64,000 nucleotides of DNA from Cyanobacteria bacterium P01_F01_bin.150 (lineage in GTDB: Bacteria; Cyanobacteriota; Cyanobacteriia; CAKZMO01). How positions within the stretch are numbered: the stretch's first letter is position 1; each line of letters starts with the position of its first letter. This document shows, in pieces, positions 6,759-63,117 of the stretch. The position numbers and the translations under genes were made by a program. The notes under the pieces were generated by a model. That model searched no databases, was not told the origin of the DNA, and worked only from the letters and a program-made list of their open reading frames with translations. The stretch spans positions 96,001 to 160,000 of the forward strand of contig JBCCYL010000004.1 in assembly GCA_039189765.1 (NCBI GenBank), given 5' to 3'.

Positions 6759-7121
6759 AGATAATGCCTGGCTATAGTTAGTGTCTTCTTTACTATGGAG
6801 TAACTGAAGAAACGACTAACTAGAAGCTGGTAAAGATTTAATGGATTACTCTTTATTTGTCTCATCTGTTTTGCGTCCTTAAAGGTAGATGAGGCGCAGA
6901 CATTGGCACCATCATGCTTGAGATGATGGTGTCTGATATTAAAACTGCCTTCCACCAAAGCTTACGCTAAAGGACATGTGCCAACTTGTCTGTTGACCAG
7001 AACAAATTGCGATCAGCTTGTGTGCGAGTAGTAAATTGTTTCATTCCCCCTGACAGATGACTATACATCAAGGTTCCCGTGGAGCTTAACCGAACCTGGT
7101 GGAACAAAACTGCAAAACCAC

Positions 7122-7150
7122 AAAAAAATCCCTACCCAGAAGGTAGGGAC
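7122..7150 (-). terminator. Rho-independent terminator of the DUF4912 gene
   Basis: Minus strand TCCCTACC-loop-GGTAGGGA followed by TTTTTTT. Confidence 0.7.
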
Positions 7151-7220
7151 AAAATGCTCAAGTTAAACCTGTTGTAAATAGTTGAACGCACTTACATAAT
7201 TAACGTCGTGATAAAGCAAT

Positions 7221-8441
7221 CTATGCAAACCACTCTTCAACAGCTTCCGCTTTTGTATTGGTATTGCGTTCAGGGGTCTCACGCTCAAACGTCATTTGGA
7301 TAGATCGAGTTTGCTCTCCATCAACGGCTACAGCCTTAATGGGGAAGTCAATTACGCCATCCTGGAATGACATCTGGAAGCGGAACGTCCCATCAGGGCT
7401 GAGCTGAATCTCACGACCACCGATCGTTACAGTTGCATCTGGTTCAGTGGCACCGTAGACGATCAGTTCAGCATCCGCCACAAGCCAGAACTTACGAGGC
7501 TTGATAGGAGGCATAGATGCACCAAAGCCGACTCCAGACATCCCTGCCCCAGACATGGTCAAGCCCATGCCCATACCAGATGCAGACCACATGCCCATAC
7601 CAGATGGGAAGACGTAGGAACTGAGAGCTTGCTCAGGAACCTGATGCATAGAACCAAACAAGGAACCCGCTACCCGCAGAGCCTCAGTGGACTCAGCCAT
7701 ACCGAAGACCTGATCATAGATTGGACTGGATGCGGCCGATGCAATCTTCTGGCTGGGAGTGACCAGCTCAAGAACAGTCTTGCCGCGAAGATCGTCATCC
7801 CAAGCCACATCAACAAACTGATCATCAATCCAATCAGATGGATAAACGGGAGGAATACGCACTACGGCAGATCGAGCTAATACTAACCAACGACCGTCAT
7901 TTGCCAAGTAACCGATTTCAACCGCATAGTCGCGATCGCTTACAGGAATAGGTACGTACCACTCACGGGCTAACTCATCACATTCGTATTGCTGCAAGCT
8001 ATGAGGACGTTGAGTATCAAGGTCGATGTCAGTAACGTCGTAGAAGCGGAGAGCTAGACGAGTGCCCCCCTGACTCCGCAAGTCCTCACGATGTTCATTA
8101 GGAATGTCCCAGTATACATAAGCCCACTGGGGGTCACGAGGTAGCAATACGATACGACTCTCACCGTAACCATCAGGTAAATCAGCTAAATCAGCATCAA
8201 CATCTGCCAACGCCTCTACGGATGACACCGTTGAACCCACATCAAACTTGGATGCTTCCACCGCTTCCTGGGCCACAGGAGCCGTTGTGGTACTGCCTGT
8301 CACACCTTGCTGGATCTTACGAATTTCCTCGACCAACTGATCTTTTCTCATACGGCTGTAGCGAGATACGCCGCATTCACTAGCCACCTTGCGTAGCTGT
8401 CGTAGGGTCATTTCATCCAACGGAATACCGCTTGTAGTCAT
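7221..8441 (-). CDS. DUF4912 protein with N-terminal Rho_N-like domain
   Basis: MTLRQLRKVASECGVSRYSRMRKDQL (Rho_N-like), YGESRIVLLPRDPQWAYVYWD, FWLVADAELIVYGATEP. Confidence 0.85.
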   Translation of the reverse strand: MTTSGIPLDEMTLRQLRKVASECGVSRYSRMRKDQLVEEIRKIQQGVTGSTTTAPVAQEAVEASKFDVGSTVSSVEALADVDADLADLPDGYGESRIVLLPRDPQWAYVYWDIPNEHREDLRSQGGTRLALRFYDVTDIDLDTQRPHSLQQYECDELAREWYVPIPVSDRDYAVEIGYLANDGRWLVLARSAVVRIPPVYPSDWIDDQFVDVAWDDDLRGKTVLELVTPSQKIASAASSPIYDQVFGMAESTEALRVAGSLFGSMHQVPEQALSSYVFPSGMGMWSASGMGMGLTMSGAGMSGVGFGASMPPIKPRKFWLVADAELIVYGATEPDATVTIGGREIQLSPDGTFRFQMSFQDGVIDFPIKAVAVDGEQTRSIQMTFERETPERNTNTKAEAVEEWFA

Positions 8442-49459: not shown

Positions 49460-49541
49460 ATTTATTCTGGGTATGATGGGTGCATGACTGTTGTTATTTG
49501 CTTAATTGAGCTGCTTCCTCAAATACATCTTGGCTAATTCC

Positions 49542-51266
49542 ATGAGCTACTGCCTCAATATTGCCTGTGCCCAGCCAGCCAATGACCTAACCGATCAATT
49601 CTGCCGGACCTGTGGCGATCGCCTCCGCCTCAAGGAGCGATATCGATCGTTGAAGGTCTTAGGTAAAGGGGGATTTGGCCGCACGTTTTTGGCTGTTGAT
49701 GAAGATATTCCATCCAAGCCTAAATGCGTCATCAAGCAGCTCTACTTTCAGAATACGGACGATGACTATCGTAAGAAGGCGATCGCCCTTTTTCAGCAAG
49801 AAGCCGTGCGATTAGACGAGCTAGGACAACATCCCCAAATTCCCCAGCTATTGGCCCACTTTACCCAAAACGATAATCTATATCTGGTTCAAGAATTTGT
49901 AAACGGCCCCACCCTGCGTCAGTATCAACAGCAAAAAGGCTGTTTAACTGAACAGCAGATTTGGCAGCTTCTAAATGATCTTTTACCCGTTCTCCAGTTT
50001 ATTCATCAGCGACGGGTGATTCACCGCGATATTAAACCGGACAACATTATTTATAGCCGCAAAATTAATAAACCCGTACTTATTGATTTTGGCGTGGCCA
50101 AGGTCGCGACGGAAACCAACTGGATGCGCACCGGAACCGTAATTGGCAGCCCTGAATTTATGGCTCCCGAACAGGCCCGAGGTAAAACCGTCCCCGCCAC
50201 CGATTTATATAGCCTTGGGGTAACCTGCCTGGCGTTAATGACGACGGTGTGTCCGCTGGATATGTACGATATCGCCGACGATCGATGGGTCTGGCGTGAT
50301 TTTCTCAAAGATGGACAAGGGGTGAGCGATCGCCTTGGCACAATTCTCGACACCCTCCTCAAAACCGCCCTCAATCAACGCTACCCCTCAGCCCAATCAG
50401 TCATAGAAGCGATAACCAACACCAACAATCAACCCACCATAATTCCCAACTCCCCAACTCCCCAACTCCCCAACTCCCCAACTCCTAAACTCCCCCCGCC
50501 CAATTCCTTCCCCCCCGCCCCTTCTCTTGCTTTTCCCAATCCTTTAGCCCATACTCCCGACCCACCCCCCGACGCTCCTCTGATTCCCCCTGCGCCACCG
50601 TTTCCCAATAACTTAGGACAAACGATTCTGCCAAATGCCCCTGCTTCGTCCCCCACTGCCCCCACCGCGCCCGAACAGCCCCCGGCTCCAAAGTCCGCCC
50701 CCGCAGCGCCTGCTCCTTTACCACCGCTTACCCCGTTGCCGCCTCCATCCCCTGCCGCAACGTCATCACAGTCTAAGCCGCTTTTCAAACGATTAATTAA
50801 TCACTTTAAGCCCCAAGAACCCAAGGGAAAAATTGTTGTGGACGGCTTAGACTATACGCCTCTGCAATATCTGCTTTCCTCGGGCAAGTGGCTAGAGGCG
50901 GATCAACTGACCCACGAATTAATGGGATTGGCGATCGGGAAAACTCGCCATCACTATTTCAAACGTCAAGATATTCTCGATTTGCCCTGTGCTGATATTG
51001 CCATGCTTAATCGGTTATGGCACACCCACAGCAAGGGGCGATTTGGCTTTATGATCCAGCTCCAACTATTTCAGGCGGTGGAAGCGGACTATGCGGCGTT
51101 TTGTCATCAAGTGCGATGGCCAGTCCATCGCACCACCGCAAAAAACTATCTAACTCCCAGCCTTAGTGCAGTTCCTGGGCATTTACCCTCGCGCCGCTGG
51201 GCTGCGGGTAGCAGCTGGTGGAGCCATATGGAGTGGCTGCTGGAGCGATGGACTAGCTGTAGCTAG
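49542..51266 (+). CDS. Ser/Thr protein kinase with Cys4 N-terminus, Pro-rich linker and GUN4-like domain
   Basis: YCLNIAC...FCRTCG, GKGGFG, HRDIKPDN, DFG, APEQ. GUN4-like DYTPLQYLL..GKWLEADQLT...GRFGF. Confidence 0.92.
   Translation: MSYCLNIACAQPANDLTDQFCRTCGDRLRLKERYRSLKVLGKGGFGRTFLAVDEDIPSKPKCVIKQLYFQNTDDDYRKKAIALFQQEAVRLDELGQHPQIPQLLAHFTQNDNLYLVQEFVNGPTLRQYQQQKGCLTEQQIWQLLNDLLPVLQFIHQRRVIHRDIKPDNIIYSRKINKPVLIDFGVAKVATETNWMRTGTVIGSPEFMAPEQARGKTVPATDLYSLGVTCLALMTTVCPLDMYDIADDRWVWRDFLKDGQGVSDRLGTILDTLLKTALNQRYPSAQSVIEAITNTNNQPTIIPNSPTPQLPNSPTPKLPPPNSFPPAPSLAFPNPLAHTPDPPPDAPLIPPAPPFPNNLGQTILPNAPASSPTAPTAPEQPPAPKSAPAAPAPLPPLTPLPPPSPAATSSQSKPLFKRLINHFKPQEPKGKIVVDGLDYTPLQYLLSSGKWLEADQLTHELMGLAIGKTRHHYFKRQDILDLPCADIAMLNRLWHTHSKGRFGFMIQLQLFQAVEADYAAFCHQVRWPVHRTTAKNYLTPSLSAVPGHLPSRRWAAGSSWWSHMEWLLERWTSCS
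50445..50492 (+). repeat. Tandem 8-bp repeat (CCCAACTC)x5 plus one degenerate unit inside the kinase linker
   Basis: Counted directly: six units, 48 bp, in frame. Confidence 0.9.
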
Positions 51267-51366: not shown

Positions 51367-51657
51367 ATGCAAGTAACCCTCGACCCTACACAAGCAGCTA
51401 TTCTCTCCACCCTTGTCAACCAAGGTCAGTATCCATCAATGCAAATAGCTCTGAACGCAGCCTTGTTACAGTTGTTAGAGGACGCCCAGAACTCAGACGT
51501 ACTCGATAATCCAGATTATGCTGCTTGGGTGGAGCAAACCCGAGAGCAAATTAATGCCGCCCGTGCACAGATTGCTAGAGGAGAAGTCCAGCCTTTAGAG
51601 ACAGTCCTCTCAGACCTTAGAGCAAAAGTTCAACGGGCGAAAGATGCTGCGATATGA
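51367..51657 (+). CDS. ParD-like antitoxin
   Basis: LVNQGQYPS...AALLQLLE...ARAQIARGE. ATGA overlap with the downstream toxin gene. Confidence 0.7.
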   Translation: MQVTLDPTQAAILSTLVNQGQYPSMQIALNAALLQLLEDAQNSDVLDNPDYAAWVEQTREQINAARAQIARGEVQPLETVLSDLRAKVQRAKDAAI

Positions 51658-51949
51658 AACGATTTATATTAGCTCGTGACGCCTGTCGAGATTTGTCCAA
51701 CATTTCCGACTATTTTCTCGAACGGAGTGTGGAGGCAGGCGATCGCTTTGTTGAGGAGTTTGATAAAAAATGCCAGTATCTGGTCCGTTTCCCATATTTT
51801 GGCAAGTCGTATTCCCATATTGATCCAGCGCTGCGTGGTCTTCCATTGATGGGATACATCATCTTTTATCAAGTGATGATGATGGCATCGAGATTTTACG
51901 AGTCGTCAGTGGCTATCGTGACCTCAATCAAGTCTTTAAAAAGCCATAG
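51654..51949 (+). pseudogene. RelE/ParE toxin, frameshifted near 51875
   Basis: The N-part (ACRDLSNISDYF...FPYFGK...YIIFYQV) continues in another frame as DDGIEILRVVSGYRDLNQVFKKP*. Confidence 0.8.
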
Positions 51950-52134
51950 TGAAGTGCGATCGCTCCTCTCAACGTTTAATTTACAGCGATCGCCACCCCC
52001 ATCACCCATAGCTATCAATCAAAATCTACAAAAACTAGCATTCCCTCAGCGACAGCGTAATGCTACTCGAACAGGCACAGGAGTGTTTCCAAGGCAATAT
52101 AATAAATACATCGGTATGCATTGGAGATAGCTCG

Positions 52135-52740: not shown

Positions 52741-52961
52741 ACCACATCATCCTGAACCGTATTCAAGATTAGAAGCTCTGTTGCATTGATTCAAGAAAAG
52801 AGCTACGAACAAAGCGATCGCGTAGGGTGCCATTAGCGCCAGCGTAATGCACCTTAACCAGGTGCACAATTTTATCTTTGTTACAAAAATCTTGGAATCC
52901 TCGGCATTTTCTTTGATGGCATATATCTTTGAAGTAAATCTATACGGTCATCGTGAAGAGA

Positions 52962-53258
52962 ATGGACACAATCCCATTTTTAGTTAGCCTCCCGGATGAA
53001 GACGAGGATGTAAAAGGTATTTTCTCGGCAGATGCAGATATCGTACTGCGAGATCTACCGACGGACGTGCTTAAGAAGAATTTGAATACGGTCTGTCAGG
53101 GCATCGCCTCTATGTTGGGCGATGTACAGAAGCTTGGCCAGTTTCGTCTCAAGGAAATAACGGTCCAGGTGGAAGTCAATGCGGAAGGCGGTATCGAATT
53201 GGTGGGTACGGCTAAATTAGGCGGCAAAGGGGCCATTACCCTAACGTTTGCGGAATAA
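52962..53258 (+). CDS. Pepco-like (peptidase-co-occurring) small protein
   Basis: FRLKEITVQVEVNAEGGIELVG...GKGAITLTF beta-hairpin pattern, immediately upstream of a caspase gene. Confidence 0.7.
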   Translation: MDTIPFLVSLPDEDEDVKGIFSADADIVLRDLPTDVLKKNLNTVCQGIASMLGDVQKLGQFRLKEITVQVEVNAEGGIELVGTAKLGGKGAITLTFAE

Positions 53259-53285
53259 AGGAACACAATAGAATCGGAGTAGCGC

Positions 53286-54467
53286 ATGAGTAAGCGTCGG
53301 GCATTGCTAATCGGAGTTCCCGAGTATGAAAGTGAGGCGATTCAAAATCTACCCGTTGTTTGCAACGATCTAAAGCTGCTGCATGCCGCGCTGGAGAAGT
53401 CTGGTTTTGGGGTGCGATCGCTCGGTGAAGACGGTCAGTCCTATTGCCGTAGCAAGATCCTACAGGCACTGCGCCGGGAATGCCGAGAGGCCAAGGGGCT
53501 TGACGTACTGCTGCTCTATTTTTCAGGCCATGGCTTGCATTTTCGCGGGAAGGATTATTTGGTGCCCTTTGATGCCGAGCTGGATGATCCAGAGGCGATT
53601 GACGATTATTTAGTGCCTGTTGACCTTAGTCGTGAGATTGATCAGGCCCAGGCAAAAACGATTATTTTTGTTGTCGATGCCTGTCGCGAAGGCATCAAGC
53701 TGGACTTTAAGGATATTGCCCTCGCAGGCTGGAGTCGTGGGGAAATGAAACAGGCAACCCGCCGCAGCTTTGTGGTGGTCTTTGCCTGTGGTCCGGGGCA
53801 GACGAGCCAATATGTCAGAAAAGAGCAGGGCTTTAGTCTCTTTTCCCGTGCCTTGGCGGAGGTGATTGATCCACAGCATGCAGCCTGTACGTTGAAAGAG
53901 GTGCTGGATGACACCCAGGTGCGGTTAAATGCGATCGCCTCTGAACATAATAAAAAATCCCAGAAAATTTACTATTCCTTTGAGAGCGCCGTGGAGGAGG
54001 ATATTGCCTCACGGGTGATTTGTGACAGCGTGGCCTCCATCGCGGCCCGAGGACAAACGACCAATCCCTGGCTAGATGCTGTGGTGCAGTCACCGCTTTG
54101 GCCCCAGGAAGGGGAAACTGAACGCTGCCCGGTGGTCTGCATCAAGCGGCAAGTAACCAAAATTGTGTCCGCCTGCTGGCAGCAGTGGCAAGCCTCGGTT
54201 CAGATGTTTCCGGAGGATGCATGGCGCGATCAAAATCTGCCAATACGGGCGTTGGAGCTGCTGGGTCTGGTGGTGCCGCCATCGGGTCTTGGCACTGATG
54301 CACCTACAGGATTATCCCTGGCGGAAACGGCTCTAATTATCGCGGTGCCGTTTGTGCAAGAGGCTATATTGGCCAGTGGGATTGTCCAGACAGTAAAGAT
54401 AAAGCCGCTGGATCTGGAACTTTCCGATCTGGCTCCTTTATCGGATGACAAAATCTATAATCTATAG
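53286..54467 (+). CDS. Caspase-family (C14) protease with intact dyad, apparently C-terminally truncated
   Basis: RRALLIGVPEY, YFSGHG, VVDACREG, followed by a helical region (DAWRD...LSLAETALIIAVPF) that ends abruptly as GC falls. Confidence 0.8.
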   Translation: MSKRRALLIGVPEYESEAIQNLPVVCNDLKLLHAALEKSGFGVRSLGEDGQSYCRSKILQALRRECREAKGLDVLLLYFSGHGLHFRGKDYLVPFDAELDDPEAIDDYLVPVDLSREIDQAQAKTIIFVVDACREGIKLDFKDIALAGWSRGEMKQATRRSFVVVFACGPGQTSQYVRKEQGFSLFSRALAEVIDPQHAACTLKEVLDDTQVRLNAIASEHNKKSQKIYYSFESAVEEDIASRVICDSVASIAARGQTTNPWLDAVVQSPLWPQEGETERCPVVCIKRQVTKIVSACWQQWQASVQMFPEDAWRDQNLPIRALELLGLVVPPSGLGTDAPTGLSLAETALIIAVPFVQEAILASGIVQTVKIKPLDLELSDLAPLSDDKIYNL

Positions 54468-54801
54468 TGCATTCGGCCTCTATTTCTGCTTCAAGAAGGT
54501 CCGAGGCTCAAAATCCCAAGTCCTTACCCAAAAAAGGCCCCAAGCTCGAAGCTGAAGTTTTTACCAAAGCTCCTAACTAAGTCAAATACGTTCAGAAGAC
54601 GCAGTATAAATTGTCTAAAGGTGATGGATAGACGATTACTTGACGATCTGCTTACTCTGCCCTTAGAACAAGGGTTGTGCGATGTGAGTTGGATGAAATC
54701 ACAATTTTTGGACTGTTCAAGCAAAGAATAATCGTTCTGTTCAATACAGAAACTAGGATTGCAGACCTTGGTGAATTCACGTTGGCTTAATATTTCAGTG
54801 C

Positions 54802-55002
54802 TCAGACTGGTCTTGAATCATCTTGATCATCATCCAATAATCCAAAGATTGCCGTGGCACCAGCAATGGCTATTGCATTCGTCGTTGTGCTAAGCCGATC
54901 CTGAATCGAGGTTGGTTTTTCAAGTGTTGCGAGATAAATGCTTATCACAGCGGCAAGAGAAGTGATAAAGATTGTTATCTTCAATAATGCCTTTTTATTC
55001 AT
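54802..55002 (-). CDS. Small two-helix membrane protein divergent from the NACHT gene
   Basis: 66 aa, two hydrophobic segments, acidic tail. Confidence 0.6.
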   Translation of the reverse strand: MNKKALLKITIFITSLAAVISIYLATLEKPTSIQDRLSTTTNAIAIAGATAIFGLLDDDQDDSRPV

Positions 55003-55203
55003 AACTGAGCTCTATGTGGTGATATGTCAATTGGCGACTTTTTGAGTCAATTCTCATCTAGCTCTTAAAGATTTCAAAAGCTATCTACAACCAGCCTAAT
55101 AATCGAAAACGAAACAAGACATCTAATGGTTTATGCACCTTACACGAGAATTATGACACAGGATCCAAGCTAATCCAACAAAAAAACAGAAAAGTCAAGT
55201 CTT

Positions 55204-55250
55204 TTTGGTATGACTTTGGCATGACTTTGGTATTTTTTTGGCATTACTTT
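55204..55250. promoter_or_regulatory. Four phased 11-bp direct repeats (TTTGGYATKAC-like)
   Basis: TTTGGTATGAC TTTGGCATGAC TTTGGTATTTT TTTGGCATTAC, lying between divergent genes. Confidence 0.7.
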
Positions 55251-55395
55251 GCACTTTAAGGTGAAAATGGTATACTTTATAGACGAATCTGCCTGTACTA
55301 GTCTACATGAGCTTATGGATGAATTCTGCATATAAACCGTCAGTGCATCCAGCTTCTCTCAAAGGCAAGGCGATACTAAATCTATTTTTCGCCTC

Positions 55396-58011
55396 ATGAA
55401 ACTTTCTTCTAAAGGCAAAGAGCTTGTTCGGCTTTCACTAACCAATAAAGAGTGGACTCTAGAAAACCTTGCAGAAGCAAGTAATTTTTCAATTTCAACA
55501 GTCAAAAAATTCAGTGCAGGTGCTAATGTTCGCGACACTACTTTTGCAAGGATTTGTGCAACTTTAGGGATTGAGTGGAAACCTGCATCATACAGTCAGA
55601 TGACTGTACAAAAAAATGAGGATAATATATCTGAATTAATTGAAGCTAACCCTTCAGGCGATCAGCTTTCAATTAATTCTTTGAATTCTCAAAAAGTTGA
55701 AGAGTTTTTTATTAGAAATATTCAGAAGAAATGCCGCCAGAAAATCATCAATTATCATCACGATGATGTGATACTAAATGGAGACAGCATTGATATAAAT
55801 CAACTTTATGTAGATGTATATTTTTTTGAAAAACCAGAAAACAGATATTTTCATTCTGCTGAAGGTCTTTTGAAAAGATTTCGAGTACAAGAAGACAGAC
55901 TCATTCTCAGTAAACGTCTTCAAAATATACCAGGCTTAAATACTGCTACCACAAACTCCAAACTCATAATTTTAGGTAAACCTGGTGCTGGAAAGACATT
56001 TTTTTTAAAGCATTTAGCAGCAAAGTGGTGCTCTGGTGAATTTCATCCAGAATCTATTCTTATACTAATTCAATTTGAATTTATAAAAAATGATTTCTGG
56101 AATATGTTAAATACTTTAGACCAAGAATTAGGTCTAAAGGATTCATATGAAGTTTTAGAAATCGAGAATAAAATCAGCGAAATACAAGTAAACATTCTCC
56201 GTTCAAGACAGGAAAATAATAATTATAAAGATGGAGCTAGACTATTTGAAGCTCAATTTATAGAAGATAGAAGTGAGTACGAGGAAAAGAGTGTTAAATT
56301 AGAAAAAAAAATATTTTCAACAGAAATTCGAAATCTAAGTGAAAAGTTAGGGTCGTTTCCTCTCGTTCAACTTCTCGCAGCAGGAAAGCTTGTTGTTCTT
56401 ATGGATGGATTTGATAGAATTCCTACGGAAGAGTTACGAGTAAAAGTACAAGAGCAGATTATAGAAATATCAAACAAGTACCCTAAAAATAAATTTATTA
56501 TTACATCTAGAACGCAAAAAATTCCTGAAATCAATAACTTTAATTATTTTGAAATTTCAAAATTTAATCATGAACAGATTAAAAATTTTATCTGTAACTG
56601 GTTTAATTTAAGAAATAAATCTGAAACGTATACGCTTCAAAGGTGGGAAGAGATAAGAGATCATTTAATTAAATATCCTGAATTGAATGAAGTTGCATCT
56701 AATCCATTATTCTTAAGTCTAATATGTTTGGTTTTTGAGGATAACGATTCTTTTCCATCTGACTTAGCATGGTTTTACCAAAAATGTATTCAGTTAATGT
56801 TAAAGCCATGCATAGATAGACGAAAAGATAGTTTCAATAGAAGTAATGAAATTTATCAAAGTATAAATTCTGACGAGAAAGAGATGCTGCTGATGCAGAT
56901 TGCTGCTAATAAGTTTGTAGACCCCAACAATTTTGTTTTTTTTGAACAAGAAGATTTGGTGAGACAGATCAGTAATTATTTTCATCTAAACTCTTCTAGC
57001 GAAGGACTTGAAGTTTTGAGAAATATTGAAACGCAACATGGTTTATTGATTGAACGGGCTGATGGTATATGGTCATTTTCCCATTTTTCATTTCAAGAAT
57101 ACTTTGTGATTCAGTGGCTGAAGAGACTTACGCCTGAAGCTCTTGTTGATGTTGCTATTAATGAGACATGGCAAAAGGCTCTTACAAGATTGGCTCAGTC
57201 TCATCAATCTATCGATAAAGTTTTGAAATTGATAAAAGAAGCTGGCGAACAATTAGTATTTAGTGAATTAAAGATACAAAATATTCTTCAATGGATATAC
57301 AAAAGGCATTTAGCTATACGTAGCAATCATAAGAGCTATGCTGTGAGAGCTTTTTATTACATAAGTAACTTAATCATTAACGTTGAATGCGTTGATGAAT
57401 TAAATCTTGATTTTCATAGTTTGAGTCCTAATAAAATTGCGCTTAAATTAGATCCTAGGCTAGATCAATCAAGAGTTATAGAGCTAGATAGATTTTTGTT
57501 TTCTTTGCTATTCTATACTCGTAAATATTCTGTTTATGAGATAGTTGAAGACTCTTATAAATATTTTGAGATATCCTTTAAATATATATTGCAATTATCT
57601 TTAGATCCTGAATTTTCACAAAAAATCAAAGAATTTCAATCTAGATTAATAGAGATAAAAAAAAGAGGGCAAGATAGTAAAAGTGTAATCAAAGACTATT
57701 CTATGTGGAAACAAGATCTTCGGAAGGCAATCCTCTCGTATCGAGATTTAGGCCATGAATGGAAACTGACTGATGAGCAACAAGAGAAGTTAAAGCGCTA
57801 TTACGAGGTGAATAAATTTTTACTTTATATTTTAACTCTTGAAAGGCGAAGTAGTAGAGAGCTTCGCTCACATATCATTTCCACATTATTCCTTCCATGG
57901 ATAGAGATTCAGCATCGTCTGCCCTATCTCCATGACCGGATTATGCAACAAAAGGTCAATCTAAAACCAAAGCAGGAAATACAAATATCTGATGCAGGCA
58001 ATAAGGCTTAG
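55396..58011 (+). CDS. HTH-NACHT (STAND) NTPase with C-terminal helical domain
   Basis: XRE-like N-terminus, Walker A GKPGAGKT, Walker B LMDGFD, IITSR, NPLFLSLIC, HGLLIERA, FSHFSFQEYF. AT-rich. Confidence 0.9.
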   Translation: MKLSSKGKELVRLSLTNKEWTLENLAEASNFSISTVKKFSAGANVRDTTFARICATLGIEWKPASYSQMTVQKNEDNISELIEANPSGDQLSINSLNSQKVEEFFIRNIQKKCRQKIINYHHDDVILNGDSIDINQLYVDVYFFEKPENRYFHSAEGLLKRFRVQEDRLILSKRLQNIPGLNTATTNSKLIILGKPGAGKTFFLKHLAAKWCSGEFHPESILILIQFEFIKNDFWNMLNTLDQELGLKDSYEVLEIENKISEIQVNILRSRQENNNYKDGARLFEAQFIEDRSEYEEKSVKLEKKIFSTEIRNLSEKLGSFPLVQLLAAGKLVVLMDGFDRIPTEELRVKVQEQIIEISNKYPKNKFIITSRTQKIPEINNFNYFEISKFNHEQIKNFICNWFNLRNKSETYTLQRWEEIRDHLIKYPELNEVASNPLFLSLICLVFEDNDSFPSDLAWFYQKCIQLMLKPCIDRRKDSFNRSNEIYQSINSDEKEMLLMQIAANKFVDPNNFVFFEQEDLVRQISNYFHLNSSSEGLEVLRNIETQHGLLIERADGIWSFSHFSFQEYFVIQWLKRLTPEALVDVAINETWQKALTRLAQSHQSIDKVLKLIKEAGEQLVFSELKIQNILQWIYKRHLAIRSNHKSYAVRAFYYISNLIINVECVDELNLDFHSLSPNKIALKLDPRLDQSRVIELDRFLFSLLFYTRKYSVYEIVEDSYKYFEISFKYILQLSLDPEFSQKIKEFQSRLIEIKKRGQDSKSVIKDYSMWKQDLRKAILSYRDLGHEWKLTDEQQEKLKRYYEVNKFLLYILTLERRSSRELRSHIISTLFLPWIEIQHRLPYLHDRIMQQKVNLKPKQEIQISDAGNKA

Positions 58012-58249
58012 GGTTTAGAATTTTTCCAGGTTTCCTAATTTTTTTTTAACTAAGAGAAGGTTACTTGCTTGGCAAGCCACTTGTCAGATCCTGAAATCAG
58101 GAATGCATTTGCAGCGTTGCGAATTTTATCTTAAGAATTGACTAGCTTTCCCTTGTTCTCTATGTCTATGTGGCGCTCCTTTAAGGCTAAACCTATCTAT
58201 TCTTGTCACGGTAAAATAGCATTTCTTTTACAGGAATCGTTCTTTTTCC

Positions 58250-58870
58250 TCACTCCAAAAACTCCGATAGCTGAATCACTATACTTGGCAACGCAATCGG
58301 CTCAATCGAATCCTGAATGCCCAAAAGAATTTGAGACTGATATTCACCACCCTGCGGATTGCGCATAATCCAAACCTGGCGTTTCTTCACATCAACTATC
58401 CAGTATTCAGGGATATTTACTTGAGCATACAGTTGAGCTTTTTGCTGCCGATCAAACTTTAACGTTGAATTCGACACCTCAATTAGCAAATACACATCCT
58501 GTGGAGTAGGATGCCTGTCTCGATAGCGATTTTTATCAATGCGTACCACCGCAATATCAGGTTCTGGTTCAGAGTTTGGGCTAATGATTAACGGCAACTG
58601 TTGTCGAATCCAAGCTTTTCCCGCAAAGAGCAGCACAAACTCATTACCAAAGCTGGATGTCGTAGATGCATGAGGTGGTCCTTGTGGGAGTTTTTCGAGA
58701 ATATATCCATCAATAAGTTCAACATGTTCAGCTCTGCTGTGCCTTTGGCGATCGCCCTTATCTAAAATCCCCGCTGCAATCATTTGATGGTAATCCTCTA
58801 CAGTCCACCGTCTCTGAGGCAAGATATCTACGGCATCTTGGGCGTCTAGACTAGAACCTATTTGAATCAC
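58250..58870 (-). CDS. Uma2 family endonuclease with an 8-aa insertion
   Basis: RWTVEDYHQM, VELIDG, SEPEPDIAVV, LLIEVS, YAQVNIPEYWIVD. Confidence 0.9.
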   Translation of the reverse strand: MIQIGSSLDAQDAVDILPQRRWTVEDYHQMIAAGILDKGDRQRHSRAEHVELIDGYILEKLPQGPPHASTTSSFGNEFVLLFAGKAWIRQQLPLIISPNSEPEPDIAVVRIDKNRYRDRHPTPQDVYLLIEVSNSTLKFDRQQKAQLYAQVNIPEYWIVDVKKRQVWIMRNPQGGEYQSQILLGIQDSIEPIALPSIVIQLSEFLE

Positions 58871-59066
58871 CTGTAATCTCCCCTTTTGACTTGCACACAG
58901 GCATATTATTCAAAATCAACAACGGTGGGACTCATAGGATTTATGCTTCTACAGTATATCGTGCAGCCTTATCGAGCAGATTTAGAGAGAGAGTAGAGAG
59001 GTTCAATACGGTTGTTTCTCGTCCCGACTTCTGGTAGGCTCTCCGATTAAGCGTCCAAATTACGCG

Positions 59067-59143
59067 AAAAGCGTCCCCTAGATGTGGTTGCACACAGCTA
59101 GAGGACTATCCAACCCATCTGACCACGCAGACGGACTGGCTAT
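59067..59143 (-). ncRNA. Candidate cis-antisense sRNA (~77 nt)
   Basis: TGtCATAAT -10 at 59149-59157. Two stems pair fully only on the minus strand (G-U wobbles). Ends in a stem plus TTTT. Confidence 0.55.
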
Positions 59144-59246
59144 CAGGTATTATGACACCCCTGAACGCCATCCCATCTTGTTCTGCAATGATTTGGGGTG
59201 GCGTTTGACTTGGGCGCTCCGGAAAAAGCAAAACAGGAGTGTTCTA

Positions 59247-59570
59247 ATGACTACATCCACAAGCTTAGCCCATCGGCTCGGCGAATTTATGCAGCCCGAT
59301 AGCCTGGAGCAGGAAGGGGCCGAAATTTTGCGCATTGTCGCCATCGGCCCTCTTCCTGTAGTTAATCAGCACGTTATCCAGATGTACCAGCTCGGATACG
59401 CCCAGCCCCACGAGTGGTCCCGCCCGCTGCCCTATATCTACCCCAACCAAGTTATGCGAATTCTGACTAAGCGCAGCGCTGGAGGTAATCGTTTGGCCCG
59501 TAACCCAGCCGATAATCCGGCCAATAATCCAGCCGATAATCCAGCCAATAATCCTGGCTTAGACGGTTAG
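59247..59570 (+). CDS. Hypothetical 107-aa protein with long structured leader
   Basis: AGGAG RBS, core IGPLPVV...MYQLGYAQPHEWSRPLP...NQVMRILTK, C-terminal NPA(D/N) x4 from a 12-bp repeat. Confidence 0.7.
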   Translation: MTTSTSLAHRLGEFMQPDSLEQEGAEILRIVAIGPLPVVNQHVIQMYQLGYAQPHEWSRPLPYIYPNQVMRILTKRSAGGNRLARNPADNPANNPADNPANNPGLDG

Positions 59571-59600
59571 GAAATTGCGAGAACCTAACATGCCGCCTAC

Positions 59601-59679
59601 GTAGGATGGGCAAAACGAACGTGTGCCCATCAGGCATTGACTGTGGTGGGCACGTCCTAACGTCCTTTGCCCACCCTAC
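59601..59679. repeat. GTAG-type REPIN (same family as 17320-17398)
   Basis: GTAGGATGGGCAAA...TTTGCCCACCCTAC. Confidence 0.75.
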
Positions 59680-59727
59680 GCTGGTTTTTATGGTCTGGCA
59701 GATTCCCATTAGTCAACTGACAATTGA

Positions 59728-60088: not shown

Positions 60089-60193
60089 CGCCATAACCTA
60101 GCATTCTCTCAAAATAGATTTTATTGCTTCGACAAACCCAGGTTACTGGCTGACTGACAAAAGTCTTGAAATCCTTGATTTTCCGTTCATGAC

Positions 60194-60315
60194 CCTGGCA
60201 ACTAGAAGTTGCAGCTACACAAACGAACTCCACCTCCGTGGACTATGTACATCAAGGGTTCTGATACCCCGCGTAGGCGGGTTTTGTTTGTGTAGCCGCA
60301 ATTTCAATTGCCAGG
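60194..60315. repeat. ~120-bp inverted-repeat element (REP/MITE-like)
   Basis: CCTGGCAA...GCAGCTACACAAAC pairs with GTTTGTGTAGCCGC...TTGCCAGG. Confidence 0.7.
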
Positions 60316-60351
60316 AAGGAAAGTTTCGTCAGTCAATCAGCCCACAAGTTA

Positions 60352-61032
60352 TCATAGGCCATCGATCTTTTCCAAGGATGCGAGGAAGAGGCGTAGACTG
60401 GGTTCGTGTTGGGAGAGCGATCGCAACCTCTTTCCATCCAACAATGGTTCACTCAATCGGTTATAAAACGCATAATTTTTTACAAATAATTTTCCTTTGA
60501 TTCCATGATCTTTTTCCAAAACATACTTGAGTGATTTTTCACAGCCTTTAGTTTTAGGCTTCTGGGGTATGGTGGATGCGTAGTGGGCTAGTAGCCAACA
60601 CTCGATGGAATGAACGCTGATACAGAAAATAATTTTCTCCTGATAATGCTCATAAAAACCAGCACTATTCGTATTAATATTCGCAATTAGCTTAGCGATA
60701 ATATTATCGACTACTGTCTCAACAGATAGCTCCTGATTTTCCCCATCTGCATGCGGGACATCAAAACCTGGATTGGGCGACACATCAGAGTCTATATGAA
60801 CAATCACATGCCGATTATTCAGAACAGCATCTCGAAATTGAGCTGTTTTCAAATACTCTAGAAGCATTTGCCAGCCGCCAAAATCCCGTTGCTTTTGGGT
60901 CGTTGCATCATAGGGCGGCTGCAAAGGTGCAACATCCTCGTCCAAGTCTTCATTATCGAAAAAGCCACACAGGATATTAGTAATAGTAACCTGATCGGTT
61001 ACGCCCTCACAAACTAACGCAAACTCTGCCAT
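60352..61032 (-). CDS. TOPRIM-like (DUF4276/RloB-like) putative nuclease partner of the ATPase
   Basis: VCEGVTD (TOPRIM-type Glu), HIDSD (DxD), SIECWLL. Starts 9 nt after the ATPase stop. Confidence 0.6.
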   Translation of the reverse strand: MAEFALVCEGVTDQVTITNILCGFFDNEDLDEDVAPLQPPYDATTQKQRDFGGWQMLLEYLKTAQFRDAVLNNRHVIVHIDSDVSPNPGFDVPHADGENQELSVETVVDNIIAKLIANINTNSAGFYEHYQEKIIFCISVHSIECWLLAHYASTIPQKPKTKGCEKSLKYVLEKDHGIKGKLFVKNYAFYNRLSEPLLDGKRLRSLSQHEPSLRLFLASLEKIDGL

Positions 61033-61041
61033 AGCAAATCT

Positions 61042-62295
61042 CTAAAAATTCTTTGGTAATCCACCCAAGTAGCCACGCAGAAACGCTTCCGATAGCTTTA
61101 ATTCTTCTCCTGTAGAAGAAACAGGTTTACTTTCAAGCCCAATCCGCTTTACCAGTGTGTGTCCTTTTCGGTTACGGGAGACCACAAATAACCGCTGGTC
61201 ATCATCTTCCAAATCTATTGCATCCAAGACCGCAGGGTTGTGGGCAGTTAAAAAGCACTGTTTATCAAACTTCTTAGCCAGCTTGACAATATCACCCACA
61301 ATTTTTGTGCAAAGTTTAGGGTTTAACGAAGCATCCACATTATCGATGGCAAAAATAGAGGGAGTATCTTGTGAAACCATCAGGGCCGCATAAAACAACA
61401 CGAACAAAAAACCTTCATTTGCGCTGCGCTGATCAAACCATGATTGTGTAAAACGATCGAAAATACTAATTCGTTCTTCCTCATCTATACTGTTCGAACT
61501 TGAGATATCAATATCTTCAAACCAGCCAAGCGCAGAAAGAGATTCTTTAATCGTTTCTAAGGGAATATCAGAATCATATTTATCCAATACCTTAATAAGC
61601 TTTAAGAGCCCTTCGCCATGAATTCCTAATGGTTCTATCTGGCCCTCTCTATACAGATTTCGTAGAGCGGTTTCTTCTGGAGAATAGATAATGATATTTG
61701 CAATAGGAATACGATTTTTCTCTTCTCTTAGCTTTGACCAGATTAAATCGAATAGAGTGCCAACATGGGCATAGCTTTCATCTCTTATTTCCTGACTTAA
61801 TAGTTTTGATAAGTCCGAGAGGCTTGGTTTTTCTCCAGAGTTTAATTCTAATAAATCACTAATGCTCTTCTGAAGAGTGTCTACTGCGCTATCAGCAGAC
61901 TCATTGTTTTTATTTTTGGCTAATTCATCGTTTTGAGCAGACTGTTCTATCGCTTCTGGTTCTATTCGGCAGGTCCACTTCGAATAGGGTCGGCCATCAT
62001 TTTCTAATTGATATGTCTTTTCTTTAGCGTCAAATTTTATCGTGATTTCAATTACCTGAGCCGGAACTGGTTCAAATGTAGACATCATTGATAATGGAGA
62101 GGTGACTCGGATGCCTCTATTCGCCAGAAATTCATTGTCAAGTTTATCGGCTTCTGCTGCAGACGCGAGGGCGATCGCCTCTAAAATATTGCTTTTGCCG
62201 CTGCCATTTTCACCAATAAAAATATTGACCCGCCCCACATCAAACTGGAGGTCAACGATGGATTTATAGTTTTTGATGCCAATTGACTCAATCAT
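61042..62295 (-). CDS. ABC-type AAA ATPase (AAA_15/AAA_21, OLD/AbiEii-like)
   Basis: IKNYKSI, GENGSGKSN, SANEG signature variant, FAIDNVDASLNP, LTAHNP. Confidence 0.85.
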   Translation of the reverse strand: MIESIGIKNYKSIVDLQFDVGRVNIFIGENGSGKSNILEAIALASAAEADKLDNEFLANRGIRVTSPLSMMSTFEPVPAQVIEITIKFDAKEKTYQLENDGRPYSKWTCRIEPEAIEQSAQNDELAKNKNNESADSAVDTLQKSISDLLELNSGEKPSLSDLSKLLSQEIRDESYAHVGTLFDLIWSKLREEKNRIPIANIIIYSPEETALRNLYREGQIEPLGIHGEGLLKLIKVLDKYDSDIPLETIKESLSALGWFEDIDISSSNSIDEEERISIFDRFTQSWFDQRSANEGFLFVLFYAALMVSQDTPSIFAIDNVDASLNPKLCTKIVGDIVKLAKKFDKQCFLTAHNPAVLDAIDLEDDDQRLFVVSRNRKGHTLVKRIGLESKPVSSTGEELKLSEAFLRGYLGGLPKNF

Positions 62296-62499: not shown

Positions 62500-63117
62500 A
62501 TGAAACGTATTGTTCAAGAGCAGTCCTACACCTTTAGTAAGTTTTTTGATCTAAAAATTGAGCCGAAAGACTTAGCCCAGTACTTTGGCTACTCATTTGT
62601 GCGAAAAAAGTTGAGACTACCCCGATATGAAGGGGATTTAGATCGGGTGGGTCCTTTGCAGGAACGGATTGAAGAAATTCTGCCCTATGCCTCATTGTCC
62701 AGCGAAGCCGCACGACGAGAATTGCTAATTTCTCCATTGATGTTGGATTTAGTTCACTATACAAAGGCTGAGATTTTTATTGAGTATGCCATCAAGGTTA
62801 GCGAACAATTACAGGGATCGCTGGACTATTTTTTAGAACGTTCCAGCTATTTGTTAGTGATTGAGGCCAAAAAGGAAGATTTAGACTACGGCATGACCCA
62901 GCTTATTGCCGAATTAATTGCCCTAGAGCAGTGGCAAGACCAAAAAGATCAAGTGTGTCTGGTCGGTGCTGTCACCACTGGTAAAATTTGGGAATTTGCC
63001 CGTTTACATCGGCCAGAGCAACGGATTGAACAGGGATTAGAAAGCTTCCGAGTTCCGGAAGATATTGAGCCATTAATGCGGATTTTAGTTCAGACGCTAA
63101 TGGGGGCTGATGACTGA
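62500..63117 (+). CDS. PD-(D/E)XK / HsdR-N-like protein
   Basis: SEAARRELLISP, GSLDY, VIEAKK, QLIAEL, GAVTTGKIWEF. Confidence 0.65.
   Translation: MKRIVQEQSYTFSKFFDLKIEPKDLAQYFGYSFVRKKLRLPRYEGDLDRVGPLQERIEEILPYASLSSEAARRELLISPLMLDLVHYTKAEIFIEYAIKVSEQLQGSLDYFLERSSYLLVIEAKKEDLDYGMTQLIAELIALEQWQDQKDQVCLVGAVTTGKIWEFARLHRPEQRIEQGLESFRVPEDIEPLMRILVQTLMGADD

What the first reader, a model, noticed from the sequence alone, without database searches (positions are those of the whole stretch)
52962..58011. Pepco-like protein + caspase next to an HTH-NACHT: possible NLR-caspase-executioner locus, or a broken conflict system
Seen: a 98-aa protein with an acidic N-terminal segment (PDEDEDVKG) and an amphipathic C-terminal beta-hairpin is followed after 27 nt by a caspase with intact H/C dyad. 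About 0.9 kb further on is a STAND NACHT NTPase. Known: Pepco/Trypco-type small domains co-occur with proteases in predicted conflict systems of multicellular bacteria, and NACHT proteins include antiphage sensors. Inference: the small protein is the caspase substrate, with removal of the N-terminus releasing an oligomerising or pore-forming hairpin. Whether the NACHT acts as the trigger is speculative, since the two parts differ in base composition and may be independent acquisitions.
Basis: partly seen in the sequence, partly recalled or inferred. Interest (0 to 1): 0.7.

Follow-up and report, generated by a model that had tools for sequence, protein, structure and literature searches.

The report
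Sensor-less Pepco-caspase pair beside NACHT cassette
A known type of bacterial suicide module (a small pore-forming protein plus the protease that cuts it) has here lost its built-in sensor half, and the NACHT gene next to it belongs to a separate two-gene cassette, not to a proven three-part system.

Summary
In detail: Pepco (52962-53258), a caspase with an intact His/Cys dyad (53286-54467) and an HTH-NACHT (55396-58011) are all present.

The caspase gene is a 3'-truncated remnant. In 19 of 20 genome loci and 41 of 77 metagenome loci, a Pepco lies directly upstream of a related caspase. That caspase is usually a ~1500-aa caspase / iHD-CE / Hsp90-like ATPase / wHTH protein. Here only 114 of 349 iHD-CE positions survive, and the missing part is not found anywhere in the genome.

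A second copy of the locus on contig C111 is also truncated, at a different point. It is also followed by a NACHT, which is only 35% identical to ours.

The low-GC NACHT belongs to a separate cassette. The genome holds four such cassettes, and two of them have no Pepco or caspase nearby.

No other Pepco-caspase locus examined has a separate NACHT gene. One has a fused caspase-NACHT-LRR.

Pepco and the caspase domain show strong purifying selection between the two copies (dN/dS 0.014 and 0.09).

This Pepco clade lacks the C-terminal tail that is cleaved in the published example. It has a conserved N-terminal [K/M]-G-[I/L]-F motif, so N-terminal activation is plausible but untested.

Verdict: a known kind in a sensor-less variant. 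NACHT coupling is unproven.

The parts
52962..53258 (+). Pepco, 98 aa. A small predicted pore-forming effector of the tail-less clade. N-terminal strand TIPFLVS, acidic linker PDEDEDVK, invariant G19 and F21, an amphipathic helix and three C-terminal strands.
   Evidence: Pfam PF24393 at E 3.3e-17, matching profile positions 40-111 of 112. Alignment of 17 homologues. AF2 monomer has mean pLDDT 59, with strands 3-9 and 27-33, helix 34-58 and strands 65-72, 78-85 and 89-95; confidence is lowest at 17-21. dN/dS against the C111 copy is 0.014.
53286..54065 (+). Caspase (Peptidase C14) domain, aa 1-260 of the 393-aa ORF. Catalytic H82 and C133 are intact.
   Evidence: Pfam PF00656 at E 1.6e-23. Invariant GHG and DACR motifs. 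AF2 pLDDT is mostly 80-94, with loop 136-152 disordered. Top Foldseek matches are MALT1 paracaspase chains at E 1e-12. dN/dS is 0.09.
54066..54467 (+). Remnant of the iHD-CE helical domain (aa 261-393). Only profile positions 1-114 of 349 remain, followed by two foreign codons and a stop.
   Evidence: Pfam PF24401 at E 4.4e-16, positions 1-114 of 349. Full-length relatives have positions 1-348 plus an Hsp90-like ATPase and wHTH repeats. The rest is absent from the genome by tblastn. dN/dS is 0.23.
54452..54466 (.). Breakpoint. Similarity to the C111 copy ends at 54458, inside a 7-bp direct duplication (AATCTAT x2.1) that runs into the TAG stop.
   Evidence: blastn end point. TRF row 54452-54466. 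Alignment of the two junctions shows no convincing similarity until the two-TM gene.
54537..54552 (-). Terminator-like hairpin on the minus strand, downstream of the two-TM gene and facing the caspase 3' end.
   Evidence: Consensus scan only. Not tested.
54802..55002 (-). 66-aa protein with two predicted TM helices and an acidic C-terminus. It is transcribed divergently from the NACHT and is the conserved partner of the HTH-NACHT cassette.
   Evidence: Intact paralogues of 66-67 aa (57-60% identical) lie beside HTH-STAND genes on C111, C56 and C122; C118 holds a broken copy. Weak homologues are divergent from HTH-STAND genes in 3 other genomes. No Pfam or NCBIfam family matches.
55204..55251 (.). 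11-bp tandem repeat x4.4 (GGYATKACTTT). A candidate binding array for the HTH, overlapping the -35 of the NACHT promoter-like site.
   Evidence: TRF score 54. Three exact matches to GGYATKACTTT lie here and none lies upstream of Pepco. Repeats of 10-11 bp are also present in the C122 and C56 intergenic regions but not detected in C111.
55248..55276 (+). Sigma-70-like promoter site (TTTGCA, 17 nt, TATACT, with TG before the second hexamer) 120 nt upstream of the NACHT start.
   Evidence: Consensus scan. The region held fewer such sites than its shuffles (8 against a mean of 14.9), so this is weak evidence.
55396..58011 (+). HTH-NACHT-NCH2 protein, 871 aa, G+C about 0.32. It has an XRE-like N-terminal HTH, Walker A GKPGAGKT, a Lys/Glu-rich insert between Walker A and Walker B, and a C-terminal NCH2 helical domain.
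   Evidence: Pfam NACHT, NCH2 and weak HTH_26. Alignment with the C111 paralogue gives 35% identity overall, with the HTH region far better conserved. The family is present in 74 of 401 sampled genomes of the phylum.
58250..58870 (-). Uma2-family gene at the right end of the diverged block. It is shared with the C111 locus at only about 80% identity over 117 nt.
   Evidence: Pfam PF05685 at E 6.2e-32. blastn 58700-58816 against C111.

Best explanation
Two separable modules lie side by side.

Module 1 is a Pepco plus caspase death module that has lost the sensor fused to the caspase.
- Its ancestors and relatives pair a tail-less Pepco with a ~1500-aa protein made of caspase, iHD-CE, an Hsp90-like ATPase and wHTH repeats. 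In such proteins the NTPase and repeat part is thought to sense infection and switch on the protease.
- Here everything after the first third of iHD-CE has been replaced by low-GC DNA.
- Shown: Pepco and the caspase domain are intact, and they differ between the two genomic copies almost only at synonymous sites.
- Inferred from Evans et al.: Pepco pre-assembles into a small beta-barrel, and the caspase cuts it to make it membrane-active.
- Inferred here: because this clade has no C-terminal tail, the cut probably falls in the flexible acidic N-terminal linker, perhaps at K18/G19.
- The trigger for a caspase with no sensor is unknown.

Module 2 is the low-GC cassette. It comprises a 66-aa two-TM protein and a divergently transcribed HTH-NACHT-NCH2. 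It stands alone elsewhere in this genome and in other cyanobacteria.
- Its most likely logic, which is inferred, is that of a STAND-type regulator. The NACHT oligomerises on a signal, the HTH binds the 11-bp repeats in the shared promoter region, and expression of the small membrane protein or of the NACHT itself changes.

The NACHT is therefore a neighbour that displaced the old sensor. It has not been shown to be the new sensor.
For: Canonical architecture:
- Pepco lies 3-4 nt upstream of the caspase ORF in 19 of 20 genome loci.
- In 41 of 77 metagenome loci a Pepco lies upstream of the caspase match. Of the 24 complete caspase ORFs among them, 19 are at least 1100 aa.
- Pfam and NCBIfam assign these proteins caspase, iHD-CE/HD-CE, Hsp90-like and wHTH regions.

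Truncation:
- iHD-CE positions 1-114 of 349 survive here and 1-249 in C111.
- Residues 520-1521 of a full-length relative find nothing in the 10.6-Mb genome except one weak hit at E 1.5e-4.

Selection between the two copies:
- Pepco: 18 synonymous against 1 non-synonymous change, dS 0.32, dN/dS 0.014.
- Caspase domain: dN/dS 0.09.
- iHD-CE remnant: dN/dS 0.23.

Independence of the NACHT cassette:
- The two-TM gene lies divergently beside HTH-STAND genes on C4, C111, C56 (GerE-NACHT-NCH2) and C122 (373-aa HTH protein). Only C4 and C111 carry Pepco and caspase.
- Weak two-TM homologues are divergent from HTH-NACHT or HTH-nSTAND genes in 3 of the 4 other genomes that have a match.
- 0 of 29 NACHT-homologue loci have Pepco or caspase.
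- 0 of 83 flanking ORFs of at least 300 aa at the 20 Pepco-caspase loci carry a NACHT domain.
- The caspase and the NACHT share no domain.
- The 11-bp repeat word is absent upstream of Pepco.

Pepco mechanism:
- Evans et al., section 8.
- Tail-less clade and N-terminal motif.
- The segment of lowest confidence is residues 17-21.
Against: - The same order and orientation (Pepco, truncated caspase, two-TM gene, HTH-NACHT, Uma2) occurs twice in the genome with two very different NACHT alleles. Chance juxtaposition does not readily explain this.
- A caspase with no sensor would be expected either to decay or to need a new trigger, yet it looks constrained.
- The selection estimate has a caveat. 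If the two copies were truncated independently and recently, the low dN/dS reflects the time when both were full length. The different left junctions allow this.
- The role proposed for the HTH-NACHT rests on gene arrangement and short repeats only. The promoter scan found fewer sites than shuffles did, and no repeat was detected in the C111 cassette.
- The Pepco fold has low confidence (pLDDT 59), and no oligomer or complex model could be made.
Confidence: 0.55

Rival explanations
1. Sensor swap in trans. The HTH-NACHT cassette replaced the fused Hsp90-like NTPase and wHTH sensor and now licenses the sensor-less caspase. It could do so by recruiting or concentrating the caspase on the NACHT oligomer, or by switching on transcription. 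The caspase then cleaves Pepco and the cell dies. This would be a split NLR, caspase and pore pathway.
For: - Both truncated copies are followed by an HTH-NACHT cassette in the same orientation, although the two NACHTs are only 35% identical.
- The two NACHTs are sisters in a quick tree, with SH-aLRT 92.
- Pepco and the caspase stay under purifying selection without any fused sensor.
- NTPase switch modules are described as interchangeable in such systems (passage in bioRxiv 10.64898/2026.10.19.760177).
- A fused caspase-NACHT-LRR with an upstream Pepco exists in a metagenome contig, L101. NACHT modules can therefore drive this caspase clade when fused to it.
Against: - No other instance was found among 20 genome and 41 metagenome Pepco-caspase loci, or among 29 NACHT loci.
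- The NACHT N-terminus is an HTH, not an adaptor, and shares nothing with the caspase.
- A convergent gene and a terminator-like site separate the two genes.
- The candidate HTH repeat word is absent upstream of Pepco.
- The same cassette stands without Pepco or caspase on C56 and C122.
- The two loci are paralogous, so they are not independent observations.
- The sister grouping may owe something to the shared AT-rich composition and long branches.
Confidence: 0.2
2. Dead remnant. Pepco and the caspase stub are decaying leftovers of a system destroyed when the low-GC cassette arrived. Only the NACHT cassette is active, and the low dN/dS is inherited from the time before truncation.
For: - Disrupted copies of this gene are common. 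L021 is cut at aa 394 by an IS (DDE transposase) with the remaining 1179 aa downstream. L013 is split into 993 and 550 aa. L017 (611 aa) and L020 (582 aa) end early.
- The two own copies have different breakpoints and unalignable left junctions, which fits separate late events.
- The sensor half is entirely missing.
- The iHD-CE remnant is the least constrained part, with dN/dS 0.23.
Against: - There are no frameshifts or stops in Pepco or in the caspase domain in either copy.
- The ratio of 18 synonymous to 1 non-synonymous change in Pepco is far from neutral.
- Two independent replacements of the same gene by related cassettes, in the same orientation and with the same downstream flank, would be a coincidence.
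Confidence: 0.25

Closest known systems
SsPepco-SsAvs4 of Streptomyces subrutilus (Evans et al., bioRxiv 10.1101/2025.11.14.688446; section 8 read)
   Same: A small Pepco protein is encoded immediately upstream of a protease gene. Pepco is a latent membrane-active beta-barrel effector that is activated by site-specific cleavage by that protease.
   Different: - There the protease is a trypsin-like domain fused to an Avs4 STAND sensor. Here it is a caspase with no sensor.
- There a 20-residue charged, proline-rich C-terminal tail is removed after Ile97. Here the protein ends at the last profile position.
- Here there is an extra conserved N-terminal strand, acidic linker and [K/M]-G-[I/L]-F motif.
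Pepco + caspase / iHD-CE / Hsp90-like ATPase / wHTH two-gene family (Pfam PF24393 with PF00656, PF24401/PF24391, PF24410), for example loci L008-L016 in Stenomitos, Nostoc and Leptolyngbya
   Same: Pepco is 62-80% identical and the caspase plus the start of iHD-CE is 49-64% identical to the cyanobacterial members. Gene order and tight linkage are the same.
   Different: The ORF stops after iHD-CE position 114 of 349. The Hsp90-like ATPase and the wHTH repeats are missing here, in the C111 copy and from the rest of the genome. I could not find the paper that named iHD-CE and HD-CE (searches; Nicastro et al. 2023 is not held).
Pepco + caspase-NACHT-LRR fusion, metagenome locus L101
   Same: A caspase of the same clade (38% identical over aa 1-249) sits downstream of a tail-less Pepco. 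Its switch is a NACHT-type NTPase (phmmer against our NACHT gives E 2.6e-12; the Pfam NACHT score of 23.7 bits is below the 26.7-bit cut-off).
   Different: There the NACHT is fused to the caspase and carries LRR repeats. Here the NACHT is a separate gene with an N-terminal HTH and its own partner gene.
Bacterial NLR-related NACHT proteins (Kibby et al., bioRxiv 10.1101/2022.07.19.500537; passages read)
   Same: A NACHT module with an N-terminal domain in the effector position and a C-terminal helical NCH-type domain. The paper lists HTH and NCH among the associated domains and notes many paralogues in cyanobacteria.
   Different: No antiphage activity is known for this clade. This clade has a divergently transcribed two-TM partner gene and a coiled-coil-like insert inside the NACHT.
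STAND transcription regulators such as MalT and AfsR (recalled; Kaur et al. 2020 note that bacterial STANDs were mainly studied as NTP-dependent transcription regulators)
   Same: A DNA-binding HTH is joined to a STAND NTPase, and short direct repeats with a period of about one helical turn lie at the promoter.
   Different: No sequence relationship was tested, and DNA binding is only inferred. The regulated gene would be a small membrane protein, not a metabolic operon.

Membership tests
Pepco (PF24393) | Match to the family profile above the curated cut-off | tested here: met
   63.4 bits against a cut-off of 27, E 3.3e-17.
Pepco (PF24393) | Encoded directly beside a serine or cysteine protease gene | tested here: met
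   27 nt upstream of the caspase. The same holds in 19 of 20 genome loci.
Pepco (PF24393) | C-terminal charged, proline-rich tail removed after a conserved Ile, as in SsPepco | tested here: not met
   The protein ends one residue after profile position 111 of 112. 42 of 63 clade members have no residue beyond the model end.
Pepco (PF24393) | Stable 9-10-mer beta-barrel; cleavage makes it membrane-active | not testable with these tools
The monomer model has pLDDT 59.
Caspase / Peptidase C14 | Profile match, catalytic His-Cys dyad and caspase fold | tested here: met
   PF00656 at E 1.6e-23. H82 and C133 are invariant. Foldseek matches MALT1 at E 1e-12.
Pepco + caspase / iHD-CE / Hsp90-like / wHTH system | Complete iHD-CE domain | tested here: not met
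   Profile positions 1-114 of 349 only.
Pepco + caspase / iHD-CE / Hsp90-like / wHTH system | Hsp90-like ATPase and wHTH repeats in the same protein | tested here: not met
   Absent from the ORF and, by tblastn, from the genome. Present in relatives.
Bacterial NACHT (NLR-related) proteins | NACHT profile match with a Walker A motif, and a C-terminal NCH-type domain | tested here: met
   NACHT scores 43.5 bits against 26.7 and NCH2 has E 9e-17. GKPGAGKT is seen in the sequence.
Bacterial NACHT (NLR-related) proteins | Protection against phage | not testable with these tools
   The only PADLOC match is weak (mad8, E 5.7e-4).
   0 of 20 genome loci and 0 of 41 metagenome loci have a separate NACHT gene. 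0 of 29 NACHT loci have Pepco or caspase. The arrangement is seen only in the two paralogous loci of this genome.
   BLASTP best E is 0.76. The 11-bp repeat word is absent upstream of Pepco.

The most novel reading that the evidence does not exclude
A low-GC HTH-NACHT cassette has replaced, at two loci, the fused Hsp90-like NTPase and sensor half of a Pepco-caspase death module. The NACHT now licenses the sensor-less caspase in trans. This would be a split NLR, caspase and pore pathway in a cyanobacterium, built by sensor exchange and with a polymorphic NLR partner. Linked to it is a Pepco clade that is activated by N-terminal instead of C-terminal cleavage.
Probability: 0.15. Interest if true: 0.75.

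Novelty: new variant of a known kind. Interest (0 to 1): 0.4.

Why it matters
Pepco-protease modules are among the most abundant protease-effector pairs in prokaryotic defence. Their mechanism has been tested on one trypsin-type example only (Evans et al.). This locus adds three testable points.

1. A large caspase-linked Pepco clade lacks the C-terminal tail that is cleaved in the tested example, so it must be licensed differently, probably at a conserved N-terminal motif.
2. A caspase that has lost its fused sensor is still under strong constraint in two copies. This raises the question of what triggers it and whether modules of this kind can swap sensors.
3. The neighbouring HTH-NACHT has a conserved, divergently transcribed two-TM partner and promoter-proximal 11-bp repeats. 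These suggest an NLR-like protein that acts through transcription of a small membrane protein.

None of these is shown here. The core finding, Pepco plus caspase, is an already described kind.

Tried and rejected
- The search for related loci with the single 604-aa caspase found no relative. With the two-NACHT alignment its patterns were poor and found none.
- Complex prediction (caspase domain with Pepco) was not available.
- No RNA holder was listed for the stretch, so nothing can be said about expression.
- The search of earlier findings by place and by sequence returned nothing.
- The ESM Atlas look-up of the two-TM protein gave only unnamed cyanobacterial clusters and sub-threshold two-helix look-alikes, one of them a holin cluster. 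These are leads only.
- The repeat finder over 54300-58400 found no terminal direct or inverted repeats that would delimit a mobile element.
- TRF found no repeat in the C111 intergenic region. The three degenerate 11-mers I saw there by eye are below its threshold.
- A global alignment of the two left junctions gave no convincing similarity, so a simple nested deletion is not supported.
- Literature: searches for iHD-CE, HD-CE, CATASP and CATRA found no paper defining iHD-CE. Nicastro et al. 2023 is not held.
- I considered that the two copies might be two strains binned together. I rejected this because their upstream flanks differ and contamination is 4.7%. The genome is nevertheless larger than those of its genus relatives.

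Full report
**1. What is there**

- ORF 52962-53258 (+, 98 aa) matches Pfam Pepco (PF24393) at E 3.3e-17.
- ORF 53286-54467 (+, 393 aa) matches Peptidase_C14 at E 1.6e-23.
- ORF 55396-58011 (+, 871 aa) matches NACHT and NCH2, and has a weak, sub-threshold Cro/C1-type HTH at its N-terminus.
- The spacings are as stated: 27 nt between Pepco and the caspase, and 928 nt between the caspase and the NACHT.
- G+C falls from 0.50-0.55 to 0.28-0.34.
- The catalytic residues H82 and C133 sit in motifs that are invariant across homologues.
- A Logan contig of run X1, which may be the source sample, covers 54311-58400 without a difference. The junction is therefore reproduced by a second assembler.

**2. 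The caspase gene is a stub**

The 393-aa protein also matches iHD-CE (PF24401), but only profile positions 1-114 of 349.

Its relatives have a larger architecture.
- Protein relatives include a 1047-aa form.
- The full genomic ORFs reach about 1500 aa.
- Their order is caspase, a complete iHD-CE/HD-CE, a region with GHKL/Hsp90-type motifs, and wHTH repeats. NCBIfam matches the GHKL region to HSP90/HtpG.
- An Aravind-lab preprint states that in such tripartite systems a STAND NTPase can be replaced by an HSP90-like NTPase acting as the switch (passage).

Counts from genomes:
- In 19 of the 20 loci L008-L027, taken from other species' genomes, a Pepco ORF lies 3-4 nt upstream. L020 is the exception.

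Counts from metagenomes (some rows are near-duplicates of each other or of genome loci):
- 41 of 77 loci have a Pepco upstream of the caspase match.
- Of the 24 complete caspase ORFs among these, 19 are at least 1100 aa.
- Of the 5 shorter ones, three carry TPR, HEAT or beta-propeller repeats straight after the caspase, so they still have a sensor fused to the caspase.

A tblastn search with a full-length relative finds residues 1-518 on C111 and 1-404 here. Nothing beyond is found anywhere in the 10.6-Mb assembly, apart from one weak hit at E 1.5e-4. The sensor half is gone, not split off.

**3. A second copy**

Contig C111 carries the same arrangement:
- Pepco, with one amino-acid difference.
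- A 604-aa caspase with iHD-CE positions 1-249 of 349.
- A small minus-strand ORF.
- A 1005-aa HTH-NACHT.

Similarity between the two loci is very uneven.
- 92.4% identity over 52842-54458.
- 95.7% over 59002-59278. This stretch belongs to a multi-copy gene family.
- Only patches of 70-80% in between.
- The two NACHTs are 35% identical. The HTH is the best conserved part.

Similarity ends at 54458, inside a 7-bp duplication that leads into the stop codon. The sequences to the right of the two breakpoints do not align until the small ORF.

In a quick tree the two NACHTs are sisters (SH-aLRT 92). Their branches are very long (1.39 and 1.09) and their composition is deviant.

This pattern needs one of two histories:
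- an old duplication whose Pepco-caspase part was later homogenised by gene conversion, or
- two separate replacements by related cassettes.

I cannot tell which.

**4. Selection**

| Region | dS | dN/dS | Changes |
|---|---|---|---|
| Pepco | 0.32 | 0.014 | 18 synonymous, 1 non-synonymous |
| Caspase domain | 0.24 | 0.09 | |
| iHD-CE remnant | 0.30 | 0.23 | |

Neither copy has a frameshift or a stop in Pepco or in the caspase domain.

If the truncation predates the divergence of the copies, the sensor-less pair has been maintained by selection. If the truncations are independent and recent, the figures describe the full-length ancestors. This caveat keeps the dead-remnant reading alive.

None of 40 relatives, 3 of them from the same genus, has this caspase at E <= 1e-30. 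This patchy distribution is typical of mobile defence genes.

**5. The NACHT belongs to another module**

Between the caspase and the NACHT, on the minus strand (54802-55002), lies a 66-aa ORF with two hydrophobic helices and an acidic tail.

Within this genome:
- Intact paralogues of 66-67 aa (57-60% identical) exist on C111, C56 and C122.
- C118 holds a broken copy.
- Each intact copy is divergently oriented to an HTH-STAND gene: the two XRE-type HTH-NACHTs, a GerE(LuxR)-NACHT-NCH2 of 990 aa on C56, and a 373-aa HTH protein on C122.
- C56 and C122 have no Pepco. The genome has only three Pepco matches, on C2, C4 and C111.

In other genomes:
- 4 of 400 other genomes of the phylum have weak matches to the two-TM profile.
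- In 3 of those 4 the gene is again divergent from an HTH-NACHT or an HTH-nSTAND-like gene.

The NACHT family itself is common. It is present in 74 of 401 sampled genomes (this count includes the genome under study), mostly as ~780-aa proteins with an N-terminal XRE-like HTH. None of the 29 loci fetched has Pepco or caspase within about 1.5 kb.

Conversely, none of the 83 non-nested flanking ORFs of at least 300 aa at the 20 Pepco-caspase genome loci has a Pfam NACHT domain. Among the metagenome loci the only NACHT hit is L101, and there it is fused: caspase-NACHT-LRR downstream of a Pepco.

The caspase and the NACHT share no domain.

**6. Promoter-region repeats**

- An 11-bp repeat x4.4 lies at 55204-55251 and overlaps the -35 of a promoter-like site facing the NACHT.
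- C122 has an 11-bp repeat x2.5, C56 has a 10-bp repeat x2.7, and C111 has none detectable.
- The word is not found upstream of Pepco.

This fits an HTH-STAND regulator acting on its own divergent promoter region. MalT and AfsR are recalled analogues, and Kaur et al. note this classical role of bacterial STANDs. It gives no support to transcriptional control of Pepco and the caspase. All of this is inference from arrangement.

**7. How Pepco probably works here**

Evans et al. show the following for SsPepco (117 aa):
- It forms SDS-resistant 9-10-mer barrels.
- A trypsin-like Avs4 removes a 20-residue tail after Ile97.
- A construct ending exactly at Ile97 is toxic.
- The conserved Ile is a feature of Pepcos linked to serine proteases.

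The clade found here differs.
- Of 63 Pepco ORFs matched by the clade profile, 42 end at the last model position and 60 have at most 5 further residues.
- The one with 10 further residues is this genome's third Pepco, on C2. It pairs with an intact caspase-FGE-sulfatase protein.
- Instead of a tail, the clade has an N-terminal strand (TIPFLV), an acidic linker and a motif x-G-[ILVM]-[FLY].
- This motif is found in 55 of the 63. The residue before the Gly is K in 40, M in 13, R in 1 and T in 1.
- In the low-confidence monomer model the linker is the least ordered part.

The caspase model is closest to MALT1. The protein keeps D28 and D131, which by recall correspond to the acidic S1-pocket residues of the Arg/Lys-specific metacaspases.

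It remains untested. The Met variants argue for caution.

**8. Verdict**

The core, Pepco plus caspase, is a known kind. Earlier notes of this scan on other genomes reached the same classification.

What is particular here is the loss of the fused sensor, the apparent constraint on what is left, and the repeated adjacency to a polymorphic HTH-NACHT cassette that otherwise stands alone.

My odds:
- 0.55 for two juxtaposed modules with no NACHT coupling.
- 0.25 for Pepco and the caspase being functionally dead.
- 0.20 for a working trans coupling.

Noticed in passing
window 54802-55002 (-) with 55204-55251 and 55396-58011; own-genome loci L006 10783-10983, L063 5390-5593, L064 2406-2609; L067-L069: A recurring two-gene cassette. 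A 66-98-aa two-TM protein with an acidic C-terminus is transcribed divergently from an HTH-STAND NTPase (XRE-HTH-NACHT, GerE-NACHT or HTH-nSTAND-like). Tandem repeats of 10-11 bp lie in the shared promoter region of 3 of the 4 own-genome copies. This may be an NLR-like regulator of a small membrane protein. I found no description of it in the papers I read.
   Followed up: partly
L007 (G000:C2:30000-46000) 5573-8137, minus strand: A third, apparently intact Pepco module in the same genome. Pepco is 134 aa with a 10-residue Pro/Lys/Glu-rich C-terminal tail. It sits upstream of a 657-aa caspase fused to an FGE-sulfatase domain. This matches the FGE-type sensors mentioned by Evans et al.
   Followed up: partly
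L101 640-4401: A metagenome contig with a tail-less Pepco upstream of a 1138-aa caspase-NACHT-LRR fusion. This is an NLR-like architecture of the same caspase clade.
   Followed up: partly
L021 10001-15988 (Leptolyngbya sp. PCC 7375): The homologous caspase gene is split after aa 394, close to the truncation point seen here. The cause is an IS with a DDE transposase on the opposite strand, and the remaining 1179 aa continue downstream.
   Followed up: yes
window 55396-58011 and L006 11179-14196: Both NACHT proteins carry a Lys/Glu-rich, coiled-coil-like insert between Walker A and Walker B. It is roughly 70 aa here and much longer in the C111 paralogue. Pfam therefore matches the NACHT domain in two pieces.
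   Followed up: no
window 60352-62295 (-) and 62500-63117 (+): An AAA ATPase (417 aa; PADLOC PDC-M31A at E 6.9e-72, also AbiL-like and AriA-like) sits next to a 226-aa PDC-M31B / RloB-like protein. They are followed by a PD-(D/E)xK-type protein. The neighbourhood looks like a defence island.
   Followed up: no
window 51367-52130: A ParE-toxin-like ORF of 158 aa. The Pfam match covers only aa 5-74, and the long C-terminal extension overlaps the next Uma2 gene. A 96-aa ORF overlaps its start by 4 nt and is a likely antitoxin.
   Followed up: no
window 59006-59570, 59567-59706, 60146-60340, 52813-52853: Multi-copy sequence families of this genome. One is a 162-aa ORF family with at least eight copies at 77-96% identity. 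There are also short MITE-like repeats with dozens of copies, one of which lies at the left edge of the duplicated block.
   Followed up: partly
window 49506-51266 (+): A Ser/Thr protein kinase fused through a Pro-rich linker to a GUN4 domain.
   Followed up: no
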